This document shows positions 51,001-57,000 of a stretch of DNA of 64,000 nt, one piece after another; the first letter of the stretch is position 1; every line of letters starts with the position of its first letter. Source of the DNA: Escherichia coli (GTDB lineage Bacteria > Pseudomonadota > Gammaproteobacteria > Enterobacterales > Enterobacteriaceae); the NCBI RefSeq assembly GCF_965641715.1, contig NZ_OZ282453.1; one strand, 5' to 3'. Position numbers: made by a program.

Positions 51001-54000
51001 ATTTCTATTGATGCTTTCCAGTCGTAATCAATGATGTATTTTTTGATGATTGACATCTGTTCATATCCTCACAGATAAAAAATCGCCCTCACATTAGAGG
51101 GCAAAAAAGATTTCCAATAATCAGAACAAGTCGGCTCCTGTTTAATTATGAGCGACATTGCTCCGTGTATTCACTCGTTGGAATGAATGCACAGTGCAGT
51201 GTTTATTCTGTTGTTTATGCCAAAAATAAAGGCCACTATCAGGCAGCTTTGTTGTTCTGTTTACCAAGTTCTCTGGCAATCATTGCCGTCGTTCGTATTG
51301 CCCATTTATCGACATATTTCCCATCTTCCATTACAGGAAACATTTCTTCAGGCTTAACCATGCATTCCGATTGCAGCTTGCATCCATTGCATCGCTTGAA
51401 TTGTCCACACCATTGATTTGTATCAATAGTCGTAGTCATACGGATAGTCCTGGTATTGTTCCATCACATCCTGAGGATGCTCTTCGAACTCTTCAAATTC
51501 TTCTTCCATATATCACCTTAAATAGTGGATTGCGGTAGTAAAGATTGTGCCTGTCTTTTAACCACATCAGGCTCGGTGGTTCTCATGTACCCCTACAGCG
51601 AGAAATCGGATAAACTCTATTCACCCCTACAGAGAGCAAAAGAGAAACGCCGATGAACAACTCATGGTGGCAGGAACTAATGCATTTTTTCCTGCAAGGA
51701 ATGACACTTAAACAGTTGATTCATATGCTAATCATCCTGATCATATTGATTATTGTTATGCCGGTAAGCGTAAAAGAATGGATAAACCTGCATAATCCAG
51801 AAATCCTTCCTCATTACTGGATGTATTACATCCTGTTGTTTTGCGTTAGCTATGTGCTTAACGGCGTTGTTAATTCCGCTTATCACGCTGTGACTGAAAG
51901 AATTGAGGTATCCGCTGCTCAGAAGCGCAAATCTAAAGAAGAAAAATATGTGCAAGATTTGTTTGATTCATTAACTCTTGGAGAAAGAGCGTATTTGGCA
52001 TTCGCTGTAGCCGCTAATAACCAGCTACAAACGGAAAAGGGAGCTCATGAATCAATTTCATTGCTCAAAAAAGGACTCCTCGTTCGAAGGCCTCCTGCTG
52101 TTGGATATCCTGATACTGACCGTTTCGTTATCCCTGAAAGCTATAGACATGAGTGCTACATTAGGTTTGCCGGGAAGGCAGACAGCCTTATGGATGAACT
52201 TATCGCTCAGGATAAGCATGGCAAAAACAAGTAATTAGCAAATGAATTTATCATCTCGCCGTCAGTTGTTTTGATTTCCGGTAGCCTGCCGCGTAAATGG
52301 CTACGTTTGGCAGGCAAATACTTCCACTGCATTCATCTGCCTTCTTGCAGCGAAGGCTTCCGAGTGATGCTGCTTTGTCTGCTCTGACGCAACCAGAGAG
52401 CTTTAGCGCAATTTTTCGCGCCAGTCGCTGTTCTTGCATTGCCTGCTCACGTTGAGCCTGTCTGCGTGCTCTGCGGCGATTTCTGGCGTTATCGTCAGCC
52501 AGATATGTAATGACTACTGCCATGTTGACCTCCGATGATTGACTTTGGCGGTGACGCGCCGGGTGCTTATCTTCCGGTTGCCGTCGTGCAGCTGCACTTC
52601 ACGTCACCCCAAAGCCAACTACTCTTTGGTTCCCGCATTTCGGCGGGACAATCCCATCAATGTTAAAGAGCCTGCCAATCTGTTCCGTTTGGCTACCAGC
52701 GTCCTGCTGATGACTTGAATTTAAGATTTCTTTAATTGTTGGTCAAGGGTGTTTTTGAAGAAAACTTAAATTTTATTGCGAAGTTTAAGTTTTGCTTTGA
52801 TTTTTAAAGGAAAGAAAAAAAGGGGCGAATGCCCCTTATGGAAGGTTTGCTATTTTTGCATCGACAACTACACCGATGATTTTGCAGTTCCCGTTGATCT
52901 CAATCATCGGATATTGTGGGTTAAGTGGTTTTAGAAACCTTCTGCCAGCATCAATAACTAACTTCTTGAAAGTTGCCTCGTTTTCTCCTTCGAGCTTTGC
53001 CACTACCAGCTTCCCATTACGAGGTTCTACTTCTGGATCGACTAGTATTATCATCCCTTCCGGGATGCTAAGACCGGCTGGAGCCGTCATCGAATCACCC
53101 TTTACGTCCAGCCAAAACGAATCTTCTGAACAATCTACGGTTGTATCGTACCAGTTATCTATTGCACGCTTATGATATGGCTCTACAGCTTCCATCCAAC
53201 ATCCTGCGCTTACCCAACTAATTAGAGGATACGAACCTCTTGGATCATGCCTGCTGTGATAGGCAATGTTTGAAAGACTATCTTCTCCTTTCAACAAGTA
53301 ATCAGGGGAGCACTGTAAAGCCTTGGCTAAAGCCAATAGGTTTTCGCCATTGGGCTCAGTTTCAGAACGCTCCCATTGGGAAATAGCAACATTAGACACG
53401 CCAACCATCTTGCCAAGGGCAGCCTGCCTAATCTTAAGTTCTTTTCTGCGAGCGCGAATACGCTCACCCATCAGTTGTGTATTCATAGTTAAGACATCTT
53501 AAATAAACTTGACTTAAGATTCCTTTGATAGATAATTTAAGTGTTCTTTAATTTCGGAGCGAGTCTATGTACAAGAAAGATGTTATCGACCACTTCGGAA
53601 CCCAGCGTGCGGTAGCTAAAGCGTTAGGCATTAGCGATGCAGCAGTCTCTCAGTGGAAGGAAGTCATCCCAGAGAAAGACGCCTATCGACTGGAAGTCGT
53701 TACAGCTGGCGCCCTGAAGTATCAAGAAAGTGCTTATCGCAAAGCGGCATAAGCAAATTGCTCTTTAACAGTCATGGTCCTTATTCCCGCCGAAATGCGG
53801 GAATACAACGCGCATCAGTTGGTGCGTATAACTTCTTATTTGTTAAGGAAATACTTACATATGCAACTTACAAGTACTCGCAAGAAAGCGAATGCAATCA
53901 CAAGCAACATCCTGAATCGAATTGCTGTACGTGGTCAGCGAAAGGTTGCTGATGCATTAGGGATTAATGAATCGCAAATTTCGCGATGGAAAGACAGCTT

Positions 54001-57000
54001 TATCCCAAAGATGGCCATGCTTCTGGCTGTGCTGGAGTGGGGTGTTGAAGACGAGGAATTAGCAAAGCTAGCAAAGAAAGTAGCCATGGTGCTGACAAAA
54101 GAAAAGCCTCAAGACTGCTGCAACAGTTTTGAGGCCTGATGTAGAAAGACTGGATCAATCCACAGGAGTCATTATGACAAATACAGCAAAAATACTCAAC
54201 TTCGGCAGAGGTAACTTTGCCGGACAGGAGCGTAATGTGGCAGATCTCGATGATGGTTACGCCAGACTATCAAATATGCTGCTTGAGGCTTTTTCAGGCG
54301 CAGATCTGACCAAGCGACAGTTTAAAGTGCTGCTTGCCATTCTGCGTAAAACCTATGGGTGGAATAAACCAATGGACAGAATCACCGATTCTCAACTTAG
54401 CGAGATTACAAAGTTACCTGTCAAACGGTGCAATGAAGCCAAGTTAGAACTCGTCAGAATGAATATTATCAAGCAGCAAGGCGGCATGTTTGGACCAAAT
54501 AAAAACATCTCAGAATGGTGTATCCCTCAAAACGAGGGAAAATCCCCTAAAACGAGGGATAAAACATCCCTCAAATTGGGGGATTGCTATCCCTCAAAAC
54601 AGGGGGACACAAAAGACACTATTACAAAAGAAAAAAGAAAAGATTATTCGTCAGAGAATTCTGGCGAATCCTCTGACCAGCCAGAAAACGCTCTTTCTGT
54701 GGTTAAACCGGATGCTGCAATTCAGAGCGGCAGCAAGTGGGGGACAGCAGAAGACTTGACCGCCGCAGAGTGGATGTTTGACATGGTGAAGACTATCGCA
54801 CCATCAGCCAGAAAACCGAATTTTGCTGGGTGGGCTAACGATATCCGCCTGATGCGTGAACGTGACGGACGTAACCATCGCGACATGTGTGTACTGTTCC
54901 GCTGGGCATGCCAGGACAACTTCTGGTCCGGTAACGTGCTTAGCCCGGCCAAACTCCGCGACAAGTGGACCCAGCTCGAAATCAACCGTAACAAGCAACA
55001 GGCAGTCGTGACAGCCAGCAAACCAAAACTCGACCTGACAAACACAGACTGGATTTACGGGGTGGATCTATGAAAAACATCGCCGCACAGATGGTTAACT
55101 TTGACCGTGAGCAGATGCGTCGGATCGCCAACAACATGCCGGAACAGTACGACGAAAAGCCGCAGGTACAGCAGGTAGCGCAGATCATCAACGGTGTGTT
55201 CAGCCAGTTACTGGCAACTTTCCCGGCGAGTCTGGCTAACCGTGACCAGAACGAACTGAACGAAATCCGCCGCCAGTGGGTTCTGGCTTTCCGGGAAAAC
55301 GGGATCACCACAATGGAACAGGTTAACGCAGGAATGCGCGTAGCCCGTCGGCAGAATCGACCATTTCTGCCATCACCCGGGCAGTTTGTTGCATGGTGCC
55401 GGGAAGAAGCATCCGTTATCGCCGGACTGCCAAACGTCAGCGAGCTGGTTGATATGGTTTACGAGTATTGCCGGAAGCGAGGCCTGTATCCGGATGCGGA
55501 GTCTTATCCGTGGAAATCAAACGCGCACTACTGGCTGGTTACCAACCTGTATCAGAACATGCGGGCCAATGCGCTTACTGATGCGGAATTACGCCGTAAG
55601 GCCGCAGATGAGCTTGTCCATATGACTGCGAGAATTAACCGTGGTGAGGCGATCCCTGAACCAGTAAAACAACTTCCTGTCATGGGCGGTAGACCTCTAA
55701 ATCGTGCACAGGCTCTGGCGAAGATCGCAGAAATCAAAGCTAAGTTCGGACTGAAAGGAGCAAGTGTATGACGGGCAAAGAGGCAATTATTCATTACCTG
55801 GGGACGCATAATAGCTTCTGTGCGCCGGACGTTGCCGCGCTAACAGGCGCAACAGTAACCAGCATAAATCAGGCCGCGGCTAAAATGGCACGGGCAGGTC
55901 TTCTGGTTATCGAAGGTAAGGTCTGGCGAACGGTGTATTACCGGTTTGCTACCAAGGAAGAACGGGAAGGAAAGATGAGCACGAACCTGATTTTTAAGGA
56001 GTGTCGCCAGAGTGCCGCGATGAAACGGGTATTGGCGGTATATGGAGTTAAAAGATGACCATCTACATCACTGAGCTAATAACAGGCCTGCTGGTAATCG
56101 CAGGCCTTTTTATTTGGGGGAGAGGGAAGTCATGAAAAAACTAACCTTTGAAATTCGATCTCCAGCACATCAGCAAAACGCTATTCACGCGGTACAGCAA
56201 ATTCTTCCAGACCCAACCAAACCAATCGTAGTAACCATTCAGGAACGCAACCGCAGCTTAGACCAGAATCGAAAGCTTTGGGCTTGCCTTGGTGACGTCT
56301 CTCGTCAGGTTGAATGGCATGGTCGCTGGCTGGATGCAGAAAGCTGGAAGTGTGTGTTTACCGCAGCATTAAAGCAGCAGGATGTTGTTCCTAACCTTGC
56401 CGGGAATGGCTTTGTGGTAATAGGCCAGTCAACCAGCAGGATGCGTGTAAGCGAATTTGCGGAGCTATTAGAGCTTATACAGGCATTCGGTACAGAGCGT
56501 GGCGTTAAGTGGTCAGACGAAGCGCGACTGGCTCTCGAATGGAAAGCGCGATGGGGAGACAGGGCAGCATGAGACGACAGCGACGAAGTTTCACCGACAT
56601 CATCTGCGAAAACTGCAAATACCTTCCAACGAAACGCTCCAGAAATAAACGCAAGCCAATCCCAAAAGAATCTGACGTAAAAACCTTCAACTACACGGCT
56701 CACCTGTGGGATATCCGGTGGCTAAGACATCGTGCGAGGAAAACAAGGTGATTGACCAAAATCGAAGTTACGAACAAGAAAGCGTCGAGCGAGCTTTAAC
56801 GTGCGCTAACTGCGGTCAGAAGCTGCATGTGCTGGAAGTTCACGTGTGTGAGCACTGCTGCGCAGAGCTGATGAGCGATTCGAATAGCTCGATGCACGAG
56901 GAAGAAGATGATGGCTAAACCAGCGCGAAGACGATGTAAAAACGATGAATGTCGGGAATGGTTTCACCCTGCATTCGCTAATCAGTGGTGGTGCTCTCCA

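What the first reader, a model, noticed from the sequence alone, without database searches (positions are those of the whole stretch)
52251..54139. Mosaic immunity region: phage-21-type N with P22-type repressor, Cro and operators, joined to lambda O/P
N carries a phage-21/P22-like arginine-rich motif. The repressor, Cro and the 18-bp operators are P22-like. Immediately downstream, replication genes and ori iterons are lambda-like, and there is no rexAB. The module junctions fall at the expected lambdoid exchange points.
Basis: partly seen in the sequence, partly recalled or inferred. Interest (0 to 1): 0.35.

Follow-up and report, generated by a model that had tools for sequence, protein, structure and literature searches.

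The report
Ordinary mosaic lambdoid prophage immunity region
This is the lysis/lysogeny control region of an E. coli lambda-like prophage, stitched together from modules already known in phages HK620/HK140, 21/P22 and lambda; it is a textbook example of phage mosaicism, not something new.

Summary
They are followed by lambda-type O/P with four iterons identical to lambda's, and there is no rexAB.

1. The repressor, Cro and OR are as much phage 21 as P22. cI matches phage 21 at 213/216 residues and P22 at 201/216, and its DNA-binding domain is identical to phage 21's.
2. N is not phage-21-type in specificity. It is the HK620-type N (87/90 identical). Only its central ~30 residues match phage 21. 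Its arginine-rich motif matches phage 21's at 6 of 27 positions.
3. Both nut sites carry the HK620 boxB, TCCCGCCGAAATGCGGGA, not the phage 21 or P22 boxB.
4. cII is P22/HK620-type (89% to P22 C1, 24% to phage 21 cII).
5. Phage HK140 is colinear on both sides (96-100%) and differs only in a 1,047-bp operator-cI-cro cassette (52713-53759).

The arrangement recurs in 127 complete E. coli genomes. Every module and junction is already known, so interest is low.

The parts
51653..52234 (+). sieB, the superinfection exclusion gene (P22-type allele)
   Evidence: Pfam SieB, 79.5 bits. 82% amino-acid identity to P22 SieB and 21% to lambda SieB. DNA identity to P22 is 93-98% in the 5' half and 75-82% in the 3' half. 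Phage 21 has no sieB.
52251..52523 (-). N antiterminator, HK620-type, built from three modules: C-terminal tail 52251-52331, core 52332-52427, arginine-rich motif 52428-52523
   Evidence: Pfam N_peptide, 57.5 bits against a cut-off of 27.9. 87/90 identical to HK620 N. Module boundaries come from the nucleotide alignment and the protein alignment.
52631..52648 (-). nutL boxB hairpin UCCCGC-CGAAAU-GCGGGA
   Evidence: Folds at -9.7 kcal/mol, z = -2.9. Identical to HK620's annotated nutL. Present in JEP4, N7, CUS-3, HK140 and HK630; absent from phage 21, HK629, P22 and lambda.
52662..52672 (-). nutL boxA, GCTCTTTAACA
   Evidence: Read directly and aligned with phage 21's annotated boxA-L.
52718..52746 (-). 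pL promoter (TTGACC-17-TAAATT), overlapping OL1
   Evidence: Promoter scan. The position is homologous to P22 and phage 21 pL.
52719..52800 (.). Left operators: OL1 52719-52736, OL2 52754-52771, OL3 about 52782-52800
   Evidence: Pattern search and alignment with the phage 21 and P22 operators.
52713..53759 (.). Exchangeable immunity cassette (OL/pL, cI, OR/pRM/pR, cro), as defined by comparison with phage HK140
   Evidence: HK140 homology (96-100%) ends at 52712 and resumes at 53760 (98.8%). The interval in HK140 holds an HK620-type cI/cro.
52820..52837 (-). Terminator hairpin after cI; no rexAB follows
   Evidence: Terminator scan. Homologous to the hairpin in phage 21 and P22.
52836..53486 (-). 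Prophage repressor (cI / C2 type), LexA-like and self-cleaving
   Evidence: Pfam HTH_3 plus Peptidase_S24. 213/216 identical to phage 21 cI and 201/216 to P22 C2. Residues 1-68 are 68/68 identical to phage 21 and 65/68 to P22. Matches the solved P22 C2 N-terminal domain structures 1adr, 2r1j and 3jxb.
53487..53552 (.). Right operators: OR3 53487-53504, OR2 53512-53529, OR1 53535-53552; pR is TTGACT-16-GATAAT at 53509-53536
   Evidence: OR1 and OR3 are identical to phage 21's. OR2 differs by 1 base from phage 21's and 2 from P22's.
53567..53752 (+). cro (P22/21 type)
   Evidence: Pfam P22_Cro, 96.3 bits. 59/61 identical to phage 21 Cro and 58/61 to P22 Cro.
53760..53804 (+). nutR: boxA 53760-53770 and boxB hairpin 53783-53804
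   Evidence: Folds at -11.7 kcal/mol, z = -3.3. Same boxA and boxB as HK620's annotated nutR.
53810..53827 (+). Hairpin in the tR1 position, between nutR and cII
   Evidence: Fold. The position corresponds to the annotated tR1 of phage 21 and HK620. Its function is inferred.
53861..54139 (+). cII (P22 C1 / HK620 type), with the pRE cII box TTGCGAGTACTTGT at 53870-53883 on the minus strand
   Evidence: Pfam Phage_CII, 149.9 bits. 89% identical to P22 C1, 82/92 (89%) to HK620 cII, 24% to phage 21 cII. The box was found, at the position of P22's annotated C1 site.
54104..54199 (-). oop-like antisense RNA unit: promoter TTGAGT-17-CATAAT at 54171-54199, terminator hairpin at 54104-54137; it spans the cII/O module junction
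   Evidence: Promoter scan. Fold at -26.5 kcal/mol, z = -3.1. Homologous to P22's annotated oop promoter and terminator.
54174..55073 (+). Replication initiator O, with the four ori iterons at 54522-54608
   Evidence: 296/299 identical to both lambda O and phage 21 O. Iterons are identical to lambda's.
55070..55771 (+). Replication protein P (helicase loader)
   Evidence: 233/233 identical to phage 21 P and 231/233 to lambda P. Pfam Phage_lambda_P.

Best explanation
The interval is the early regulatory (immunity) region of a lambdoid prophage in an E. coli chromosome. It is assembled from four known module types.

1. An HK620-type N antiterminator with matching HK620-type nutL and nutR.
2. A 21/P22-type immunity cassette (OL/pL, cI, OR/pRM/pR, cro).
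3. A P22/HK620-type cII with its pRE box and an oop antisense unit.
4. The lambda/21-type O-P replication module with ori-lambda iterons.

A P22-type sieB lies on the left, in a lambda-like recombination arm.

Inferred working:
- In the lysogen the repressor binds the six 18-bp operators, shuts off pL and pR, and activates its own promoter.
- RecA-stimulated self-cleavage at the Ala-Gly site (the S24 domain is intact) would induce the prophage.
- After induction, pL and pR transcripts carry boxA plus the CGAAAU-loop boxB. The N arginine-rich motif binds that hairpin and, with the Nus factors, lets RNA polymerase read through tL and tR1 into cII, O, P and Q.
- cII activates pRE and paQ, and oop antagonises cII.
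- O binds the iterons and P recruits DnaB.

Because the repressor's DNA-binding domain is identical to phage 21's and the operators match, the prophage should have phage 21 / P22 immunity specificity. Its N/nut specificity should be HK620-type.

The simplest history is a double crossover in the conserved flanks. These are the start of the pL transcript (about 52673-52712) and the boxA just after cro (53760). The crossover would have placed a 21-type cassette into an HK140-like backbone. A further old exchange inside cI lies near 53170.

Shown here: gene content, identities, junction positions, hairpin folds and recurrence in other genomes. Inferred: all binding, immunity and antitermination functions.
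For: - Segment-wise identity:
  - up to 51632: lambda, 98-100%
  - 51440-52250: P22 sieB
  - 52255-52712: HK620/JEP4/HK140-type N, leader and nutL, 95-100% (phage 21 only 55-83% across the arginine-rich motif, leader and boxB)
  - 53170-53540: phage 21, 97-100%
  - 53780-53840: JEP4/N7/CUS-3 nutR, 93% (phage 21 67%, P22 57%)
  - 53840-54140: N7 and P22 cII
  - from 54149: lambda/21, 98-100%
- HK140 is colinear at 51072-52712 and 53760-56572 and non-homologous between.
- N is 87/90 identical to HK620 N, with identical annotated nut sites.
- The type of arginine-rich motif tracks the type of boxB in all eleven phages compared. The C-terminal tail reassorts independently: phage 21, HK629, CUS-3/N7 and window/JEP4 show all four combinations.
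- The repressor is 213/216 identical to phage 21 cI, with an identical N-terminal domain.
- Operator matches are enriched over chance.
- Pfam assigns all seven proteins it matched to the expected families.
- Iterons are identical to lambda's.
- The cII/O junction is shared with HK140 and N7.
- The same 2-kb arrangement is found in 127 complete E. coli genomes at 80% coverage or more; the 20 best listed are 99.5-100% identical.
Against: - No function was tested.
- OL is only 82-88% identical to any reference, and OR2 differs by one base from phage 21's. A shift in fine operator affinity cannot be excluded.
- That phages 21 and P22 are cross-immune is my recollection of Poteete et al. 1980 and Botstein & Herskowitz 1974. 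Only the Poteete title could be verified in the held library.
- I did not check whether the prophage is complete and inducible. Its far end lies beyond the window.
- The proposed order of recombination events is an inference from present-day sequences.
Confidence: 0.9

Rival explanations
1. One reading: an N with phage 21 (or P22) RNA-binding specificity, placed next to an immunity region derived from P22 itself and joined to lambda O/P.
For: The N core (residues 33-62) is identical to phage 21 N, and the last ~23 residues resemble P22 gp24. The repressor, Cro and cII are 89-95% identical to the P22 proteins.
Against: - The arginine-rich motif matches phage 21's at 6 of 27 positions.
- boxB at both nut sites is CCCGCCGAAATGCGGG. 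Phage 21 has TCTCAACCTAACCGTTGAGA and TCACCTCTAACCGGGTGA; P22 has GCGCTGACAAAGCGC.
- DNA identity to P22 across cI-cro is only 72-93% per 60-bp window, except 100% around the cro start (53540-53599). Identity to phage 21 is 97-100% over the cI 5' half and OR.
Confidence: 0.06
2. The region is simply the phage 21 immunity region, as in lambda imm21 or DE3, with ordinary point divergence and no real mosaicism.
For: Phage 21 and lambda imm21 are the best-covering hits for 50000-56500: 82% coverage at 95% identity. cI, Cro, O and P are 97-100% identical to the phage 21 proteins.
Against: - Phage 21 lacks sieB.
- Its cII is 24% identical.
- Homology is absent at 51533-52332 and drops to 47-68% at 53780-54140.
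- The N arginine-rich motif, the N tail and both boxB hairpins differ.
Confidence: 0.02
3. The arrangement is an assembly chimera or a laboratory hybrid, not a natural prophage.
For: None found. This was considered only because lambda-P22 and lambda-21 hybrids were built in laboratories.
Against: The same 2-kb arrangement occurs at 99.5-100% identity in the 20 best of 127 independently assembled complete E. coli genomes, from humans, swine, duck, pigeon, mink, panda and soil. The junctions are shared with the natural phages HK140, HK620, N7 and JEP4.
Confidence: 0.01

Closest known systems
Phage HK140 early region (JQ086370)
   Same: The order ral, P22-type sieB, HK620-type N, nutL ... nutR, P22/HK620-type cII, lambda-type O, P, ren and ninB is colinear. 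Identity is 95.7-100% on the left (51072-52712) and 98.8% on the right (53760-56572). The cII/O junction sequence is the same.
   Different: HK140 carries the HK620-type operators, cI (238 aa) and cro, plus an extra gene (hkaS-like). The window has the 21/P22-type cassette at 52713-53759. HK140 also has a ~190-bp insertion in the N leader.
Phage 21 immunity region (OL657228; also lambda imm21 and DE3)
   Same: cI is 213/216 identical, with an identical DNA-binding domain. Cro is 59/61 identical. OR1 and OR3 are identical and OR2 differs by 1 base. There is no rexAB. O is 99% and P 100% identical, and the TGT beside iteron 1 is shared. tRNA-Asn and tRNA-Thr follow Q.
   Different: The N arginine-rich motif and both boxB hairpins differ. 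The N C-terminal tail is lambda-like in phage 21 and P22-like here. Phage 21 has no sieB. Its cII is unrelated in type (24% identity). The cI 3' half is only 75-87% identical in DNA.
Salmonella phage P22 immC region (NC_002371)
   Same: The gene order sieB, 24/N, c2, cro, c1 is the same. C2 is 93%, Cro 95%, C1 89% and SieB 82% identical. The 18-bp operator type and the oop unit are shared.
   Different: The gp24 arginine-rich motif, core and boxB differ (41% identity overall). DNA identity is about 82%. P22 replicates with genes 18 and 12 (a DnaB-type helicase), not lambda O/P. Whether this prophage has a second immunity region (immI) was not examined.
Phage HK620 N and nut sites (NC_002730)
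   Same: N is 87/90 identical. The annotated nutL and nutR share the window's boxA core GCTCTTTAACA and its boxB. cII is 82/92 (89%) identical.
   Different: HK620 has its own cI/cro/operator specificity, HK022-type O and a DnaB-like P. It is a P22-like podovirus.
E. coli P22-like phages N7, IME10, CUS-3 and JEP4
   Same: These are the closest DNA matches to the whole N-cII interval among isolated phages: 92-93% identity over 80-95% of it. They have the same arginine-rich motif, the same boxB and a 21/P22-type cI/cro.
   Different: N7 and CUS-3 have the lambda/21-type N tail. The cI 5' half is only 70-90% identical. Their replication genes differ, and none has sieB in this position.

Membership tests
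Lambdoid N antiterminator family | [quoted passage not shown] | tested here: met
   Pfam PF25694 N_peptide, 57.5 bits against a cut-off of 27.9. The motif NARNRRRARRQAQ lies at residues 11-23.
Lambdoid N antiterminator family | Cognate nut sites (boxA plus a boxB hairpin) in both the pL and pR transcripts | tested here: met
   boxA GCTCTTTAACA and an identical boxB hairpin lie at 52631-52672 (-) and 53760-53804 (+). Hairpin fold z-scores are -2.9 and -3.3.
Phage-21-type N specificity | The phage 21 arginine-rich motif (GTAKSRYKARRAELIAERR) paired with the phage 21 boxB (CUAACC-type loop) | tested here: not met
   The motif matches at 6 of 27 positions. The boxB sequences are different. Only the core, residues 33-62, is shared.
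P22-type N (gp24) specificity | The P22 arginine-rich motif (GNAKTRRHERRRKLAIERD) paired with the GACAA-loop boxB | tested here: not met
   Overall identity is 41%. boxB has a CGAAAU loop, not GACAA. Only the C-terminal ~23 residues are P22-like.
HK620-type N/nut | The HK620 N sequence and HK620's annotated nutL and nutR | tested here: met
   N is 87/90 identical, and the boxA core and boxB are identical at both sites.
21/P22 immunity group | A repressor DNA-binding domain and Cro of the P22 C2 / P22 Cro type | tested here: met
   Repressor residues 1-68 are 68/68 identical to phage 21 and 65/68 to P22. They match the solved P22 C2 N-terminal domains at E = 1e-37 to 1e-39. Pfam P22_Cro, 96.3 bits.
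21/P22 immunity group | Tripartite 18-bp operators of the ATTTAAGA-NN-TCTTAAAT type at pL and pR | tested here: met
   Four sites with at most 3 mismatches, all in OL or OR, against 0.47 expected. All six align with the phage 21 and P22 operators.
21/P22 immunity group | Functional cross-immunity with phage 21 / P22 immC | not testable with these tools
   Needs plating of lambda imm21 and lambda immP22 on the lysogen.
LexA-like self-cleaving repressors (peptidase S24) | An S24 domain with the Ala-Gly cleavage site and the Ser/Lys catalytic pair | tested here: met
   Pfam Peptidase_S24, 107 bits. The motifs VSAG, GDSM and FKKL can be read in the sequence and are conserved with P22 C2 and lambda cI.
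Lambda-type replication module | O and P proteins, with four ori iterons inside O | tested here: met
   O is 296/299 and P 231/233 identical to lambda's. Four iterons at 54522-54608 are identical to lambda's.
Lambda rex exclusion system | rexA and rexB downstream of cI | tested here: not met
   Only a terminator hairpin separates the cI stop (52836) from OL3 (about 52800). Its absence is as in phage 21 and P22.

The most novel reading that the evidence does not exclude
The HK620-type arginine-rich motif and boxB pair carried here may be a fourth, orthogonal N-RNA recognition class. Its loop, CGAAAU, could form a true GAAA tetraloop flanked by a C/U mismatch, unlike the pentaloops of lambda and P22 or the hexaloop of phage 21. 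It appears to be uncharacterised biochemically: the motif and boxB strings gave no hit in the open-access full-text library. This prophage would then be a natural lambda-replication, 21-immunity chassis for testing it. The mosaic itself is not novel.
Probability: 0.4. Interest if true: 0.3.

Novelty: new member of a known kind. Interest (0 to 1): 0.1.

Why it matters
It matters little beyond bookkeeping. The region is a clean natural illustration of modular exchange in lambdoid phages, at two scales.

- A 1,047-bp immunity cassette has been swapped between conserved flanks.
- Inside the 90-residue N protein, the RNA-binding, core and C-terminal segments reassort independently. The RNA-binding segment always travels with both matching nut sites.

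For annotation, the practical points are:
- Predict 21/P22 immunity, HK620-type N specificity and lambda-type replication for this widespread E. coli prophage family.
- Do not label the N protein 'hypothetical', as several RefSeq records do.

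Tried and rejected
- **Rfam scan of 51000-56500.** Only two chance snoRNA-like hits below threshold. Neither nut nor oop reached any family's threshold.
- **Literature on cross-immunity of P22 and phage 21.** Only the title of Poteete et al. 1980 could be confirmed from a reference list. The phage 21 genome announcement does not discuss it.
- **Cocozaki et al. 2008**, on P22 boxB requirements, is not held.
- **Full-text search for the boxB and arginine-rich-motif strings.** No papers.
- **cII-box pattern TTGYN6TTGY.** Not enriched window-wide: 14 found against 17 expected. Only the copy at 53870-53883 is counted, because it lies at the position of P22's annotated C1 site.
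- **Strain TL20 as the source of the window.** Rejected. It is 99.98% identical over 48-58 kb but only 98.4% over the full 64 kb.
- **The 121-aa ORF 53774-54139 as cII.** Rejected in favour of the 92-aa form starting at 53861. The longer form would run through the nutR boxB, and the P22 and HK620 cII proteins are 92 aa.

Full report
**What is there**

The window is E. coli chromosome (glk ... dsdC, ipuA/B, upaE). From about 44.8 kb it continues into a lambdoid prophage that runs past the end of the window. It is 98.4% identical to strain TL20 overall and 99.98% identical over 48-58 kb.

The finding's coordinates run exactly from the stop codon of N to the stop codon of cII. The gene order, is:
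- exo, bet, gam, kil, cIII, ea10, ral
- sieB (51653-52234, +)
- N (52251-52523, -)
- repressor (52836-53486, -)
- cro (53567-53752, +)
- cII (53861-54139, +)
- O (54174-55073), P (55070-55771), ren, ninB

Pfam places seven of the eight proteins scanned in the expected families; Ren matched none. The families are N_peptide, HTH_3 plus Peptidase_S24, P22_Cro, Phage_CII, SieB, Phage_rep_O and Phage_lambda_P.

**Checking each claim**

*Repressor, Cro and operators.* They are P22-like: 93.1% identity to C2 and 95.1% to Cro. They are closer still to phage 21.
- The phage 21 record annotates cI from an internal Met, but its DNA encodes the full 216 residues. The window protein differs from it at 3 of 216 positions. 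Residues 1-68 are identical to phage 21 and 65/68 identical to P22.
- The P22 operator consensus ATTTAAGANNTCTTAAAT, allowing up to 3 mismatches, hits four times in 64 kb. All four hits are in OL or OR. Chance expectation is 0.47, and 0 of 100 shuffles reach four.
- By alignment, OR1 and OR3 are identical to phage 21's and OR2 differs by one base. OL1-OL3 align with both phages.

*rexAB.* It is absent. Only a terminator hairpin lies between the cI stop and OL3.

*Replication.* O and P are 99% identical to lambda's, and P is 100% identical to phage 21's. The four iterons are identical to lambda's. The single flanking difference (TGT) is the phage 21 / lambda imm21 allele. The same change was noted for lambda imm21 in PMC3349717.

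*The N claim fails in its specific form.* N is a three-module chimera.
- Residues 1-32 carry the arginine-rich motif DDNARNRRRARRQAQREQ. It matches phage 21's at 6 of 27 positions.
- Residues 33-62 are identical to phage 21 N.
- The last ~25 residues (ECSGSICLPNVAIYAAGYRKSKQLTAR) are the P22 gp24 type. That tail also occurs at 91-95% identity in 933W, VT2-Sakai and many other Stx-phage N proteins.
- Overall, N is 87/90 identical to phage HK620 N.
- Both nut sites carry boxA GCTCTTTAACA and the same boxB, UCCCGC-CGAAAU-GCGGGA. These are identical to HK620's annotated nutL and nutR. They are unlike the phage 21, P22 and lambda boxB hairpins.

*Motif and boxB across the eleven phages compared.*
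- The HK620-type motif always comes with this boxB on both sides: window, HK620, HK140, HK630, JEP4, N7 and CUS-3.
- The phage 21 motif comes with the phage 21 boxB: phage 21 and HK629.
- P22 and lambda have their own pairs.
- The C-terminal tail reassorts freely, and all four motif/tail combinations exist.

**Mosaic map**

The 60-bp identity profile and BLAST segments give the following.

| Window interval | Content | Closest match |
|---|---|---|
| up to 51632 | recombination arm through ral | lambda / phage 21, 98-100% |
| 51440-52250 | sieB | P22, falling from 98% to 75% |
| 52255-52331 | N tail | HK629, JEP4, 100% |
| 52332-52427 | N core | shared with phage 21 |
| 52428-52712 | N motif, leader, nutL | HK620/JEP4/N7/CUS-3/HK140, 95-100% (phage 21 55-83%) |
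| 52713-53759 | immunity cassette | 21/P22 type |
| 53760-53840 | nutR | HK620 type (JEP4/N7/CUS-3 93%) |
| 53840-54140 | cII | N7 and P22 |
| from about 54170 | O, P, ren, ninB | lambda / phage 21, 98-100% |

Within the cassette, the cI 3' half is closest to JEP4/N7/CUS-3 (85-98%). The cI 5' half plus OR (53170-53540) is closest to phage 21 (97-100%).

The cII/O crossover lies inside CTGGATCAATCCACAGGAGTCATTATG. This is part of the oop promoter / O ribosome-binding region, which is conserved among lambda, P22 and phage 21. The same junction is present in HK140 and N7.

**Closest whole relative**

Phage HK140 is colinear on both sides and differs only by carrying the HK620-type cI/cro cassette. 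The simplest reading is an HK140-like backbone that received a 21-type immunity cassette by a double crossover in the conserved flanks.

No isolated phage in the collection has the same combination. The best match is N7, at 92% identity over 95% of the interval. In contrast, 127 complete E. coli genomes hold at least 80% of the 2-kb interval. The 20 best listed, from humans, livestock, wildlife and soil, are 99.5-100% identical. It is therefore a natural and common prophage type.

**How it most likely works (inferred)**

- The repressor binds OL and OR, represses pL (52718-52746) and pR (53509-53536), and maintains its own expression. The S24 domain with its Ala-Gly site allows RecA-dependent induction.
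- N binds the CGAAAU-loop boxB at nutL and nutR and, with the Nus factors, carries RNA polymerase past the terminators.
- cII acts at the pRE box (53870-53883). oop (54104-54199, minus strand) is antisense to the 3' end of cII.
- O binds the iterons and P loads DnaB. SieB excludes superinfecting phages.
- Predicted specificities: immunity of the 21/P22 group, N/nut of the HK620 type, replication of the lambda type.
- That phages 21 and P22 share immunity specificity is my recollection of the older literature. Only the title of Poteete et al. 1980 could be confirmed here.

**Verdict**

Every module, and every junction checked against other phages, is already present in sequenced and annotated phages.

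This is another member of a well-known kind, so interest is low. The only mildly open point is that the HK620-type motif/boxB pair seems never to have been characterised biochemically.

Noticed in passing
window 52251-52331 (N C-terminal tail): The last 22-24 residues of N (LPNVAIYAAGYRKSKQLTAR) recur at 91-95% identity in the N proteins of many Stx phages (933W, VT2-Sakai, Min27 and others). Those proteins are otherwise unrelated to this N. The tail therefore looks like a separately exchangeable module, presumably the RNA-polymerase-contacting end.
   Followed up: partly
L001 (phage 21, OL657228) 5132-5782, minus strand: The GenBank record annotates phage 21 cI as 190 aa from an internal Met. 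The DNA encodes the full 216-aa repressor, whose N-terminus is 25/26 identical to P22 C2's and identical to the window's. This is probably an annotation start-site error.
   Followed up: yes
window 53774-54139: A 121-aa ORF extends cII upstream through the nutR boxB. N7 and HK140 annotate this long form as cII/C1. Homology with P22 C1 and HK620 cII (92 aa), and a ribosome-binding site before 53861, favour the short form.
   Followed up: partly
window 58147-58302: tRNA-Asn (GTT) and tRNA-Thr (TGT) lie just downstream of the Q antiterminator gene, as in phage 21. The TL20 annotation lists only the tRNA-Asn.
   Followed up: no
window about 44300-44985: The left end of the prophage lies here. A torI-like excisionase gene (44785-44985, -) is the outermost phage gene, next to a 176-aa ORF and the upaE autotransporter gene (35762-43681). 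No integrase lies on this side, so it is presumably at the far end beyond the window, as in KplE1/CPS-53 at argW.
   Followed up: no
L008 (CUS-3) 2712-3213 and L010 (HK140) about 1975-2168: CUS-3 and HK140 each carry an insertion of roughly 200 bp in the N leader, between nutL and the N start codon. The window, HK620, JEP4 and N7 lack it. CUS-3's annotation calls the 502-bp interval that includes it 'bsq5; boundary sequence'.
   Followed up: no
window 52836-53170 versus 53170-53486 (inside cI): There is a recombination breakpoint inside the repressor gene, near codon 105. The part encoding the C-terminal domain is closest to JEP4/N7/CUS-3. The part encoding the DNA-binding domain, together with OR, is closest to phage 21.
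   Followed up: partly
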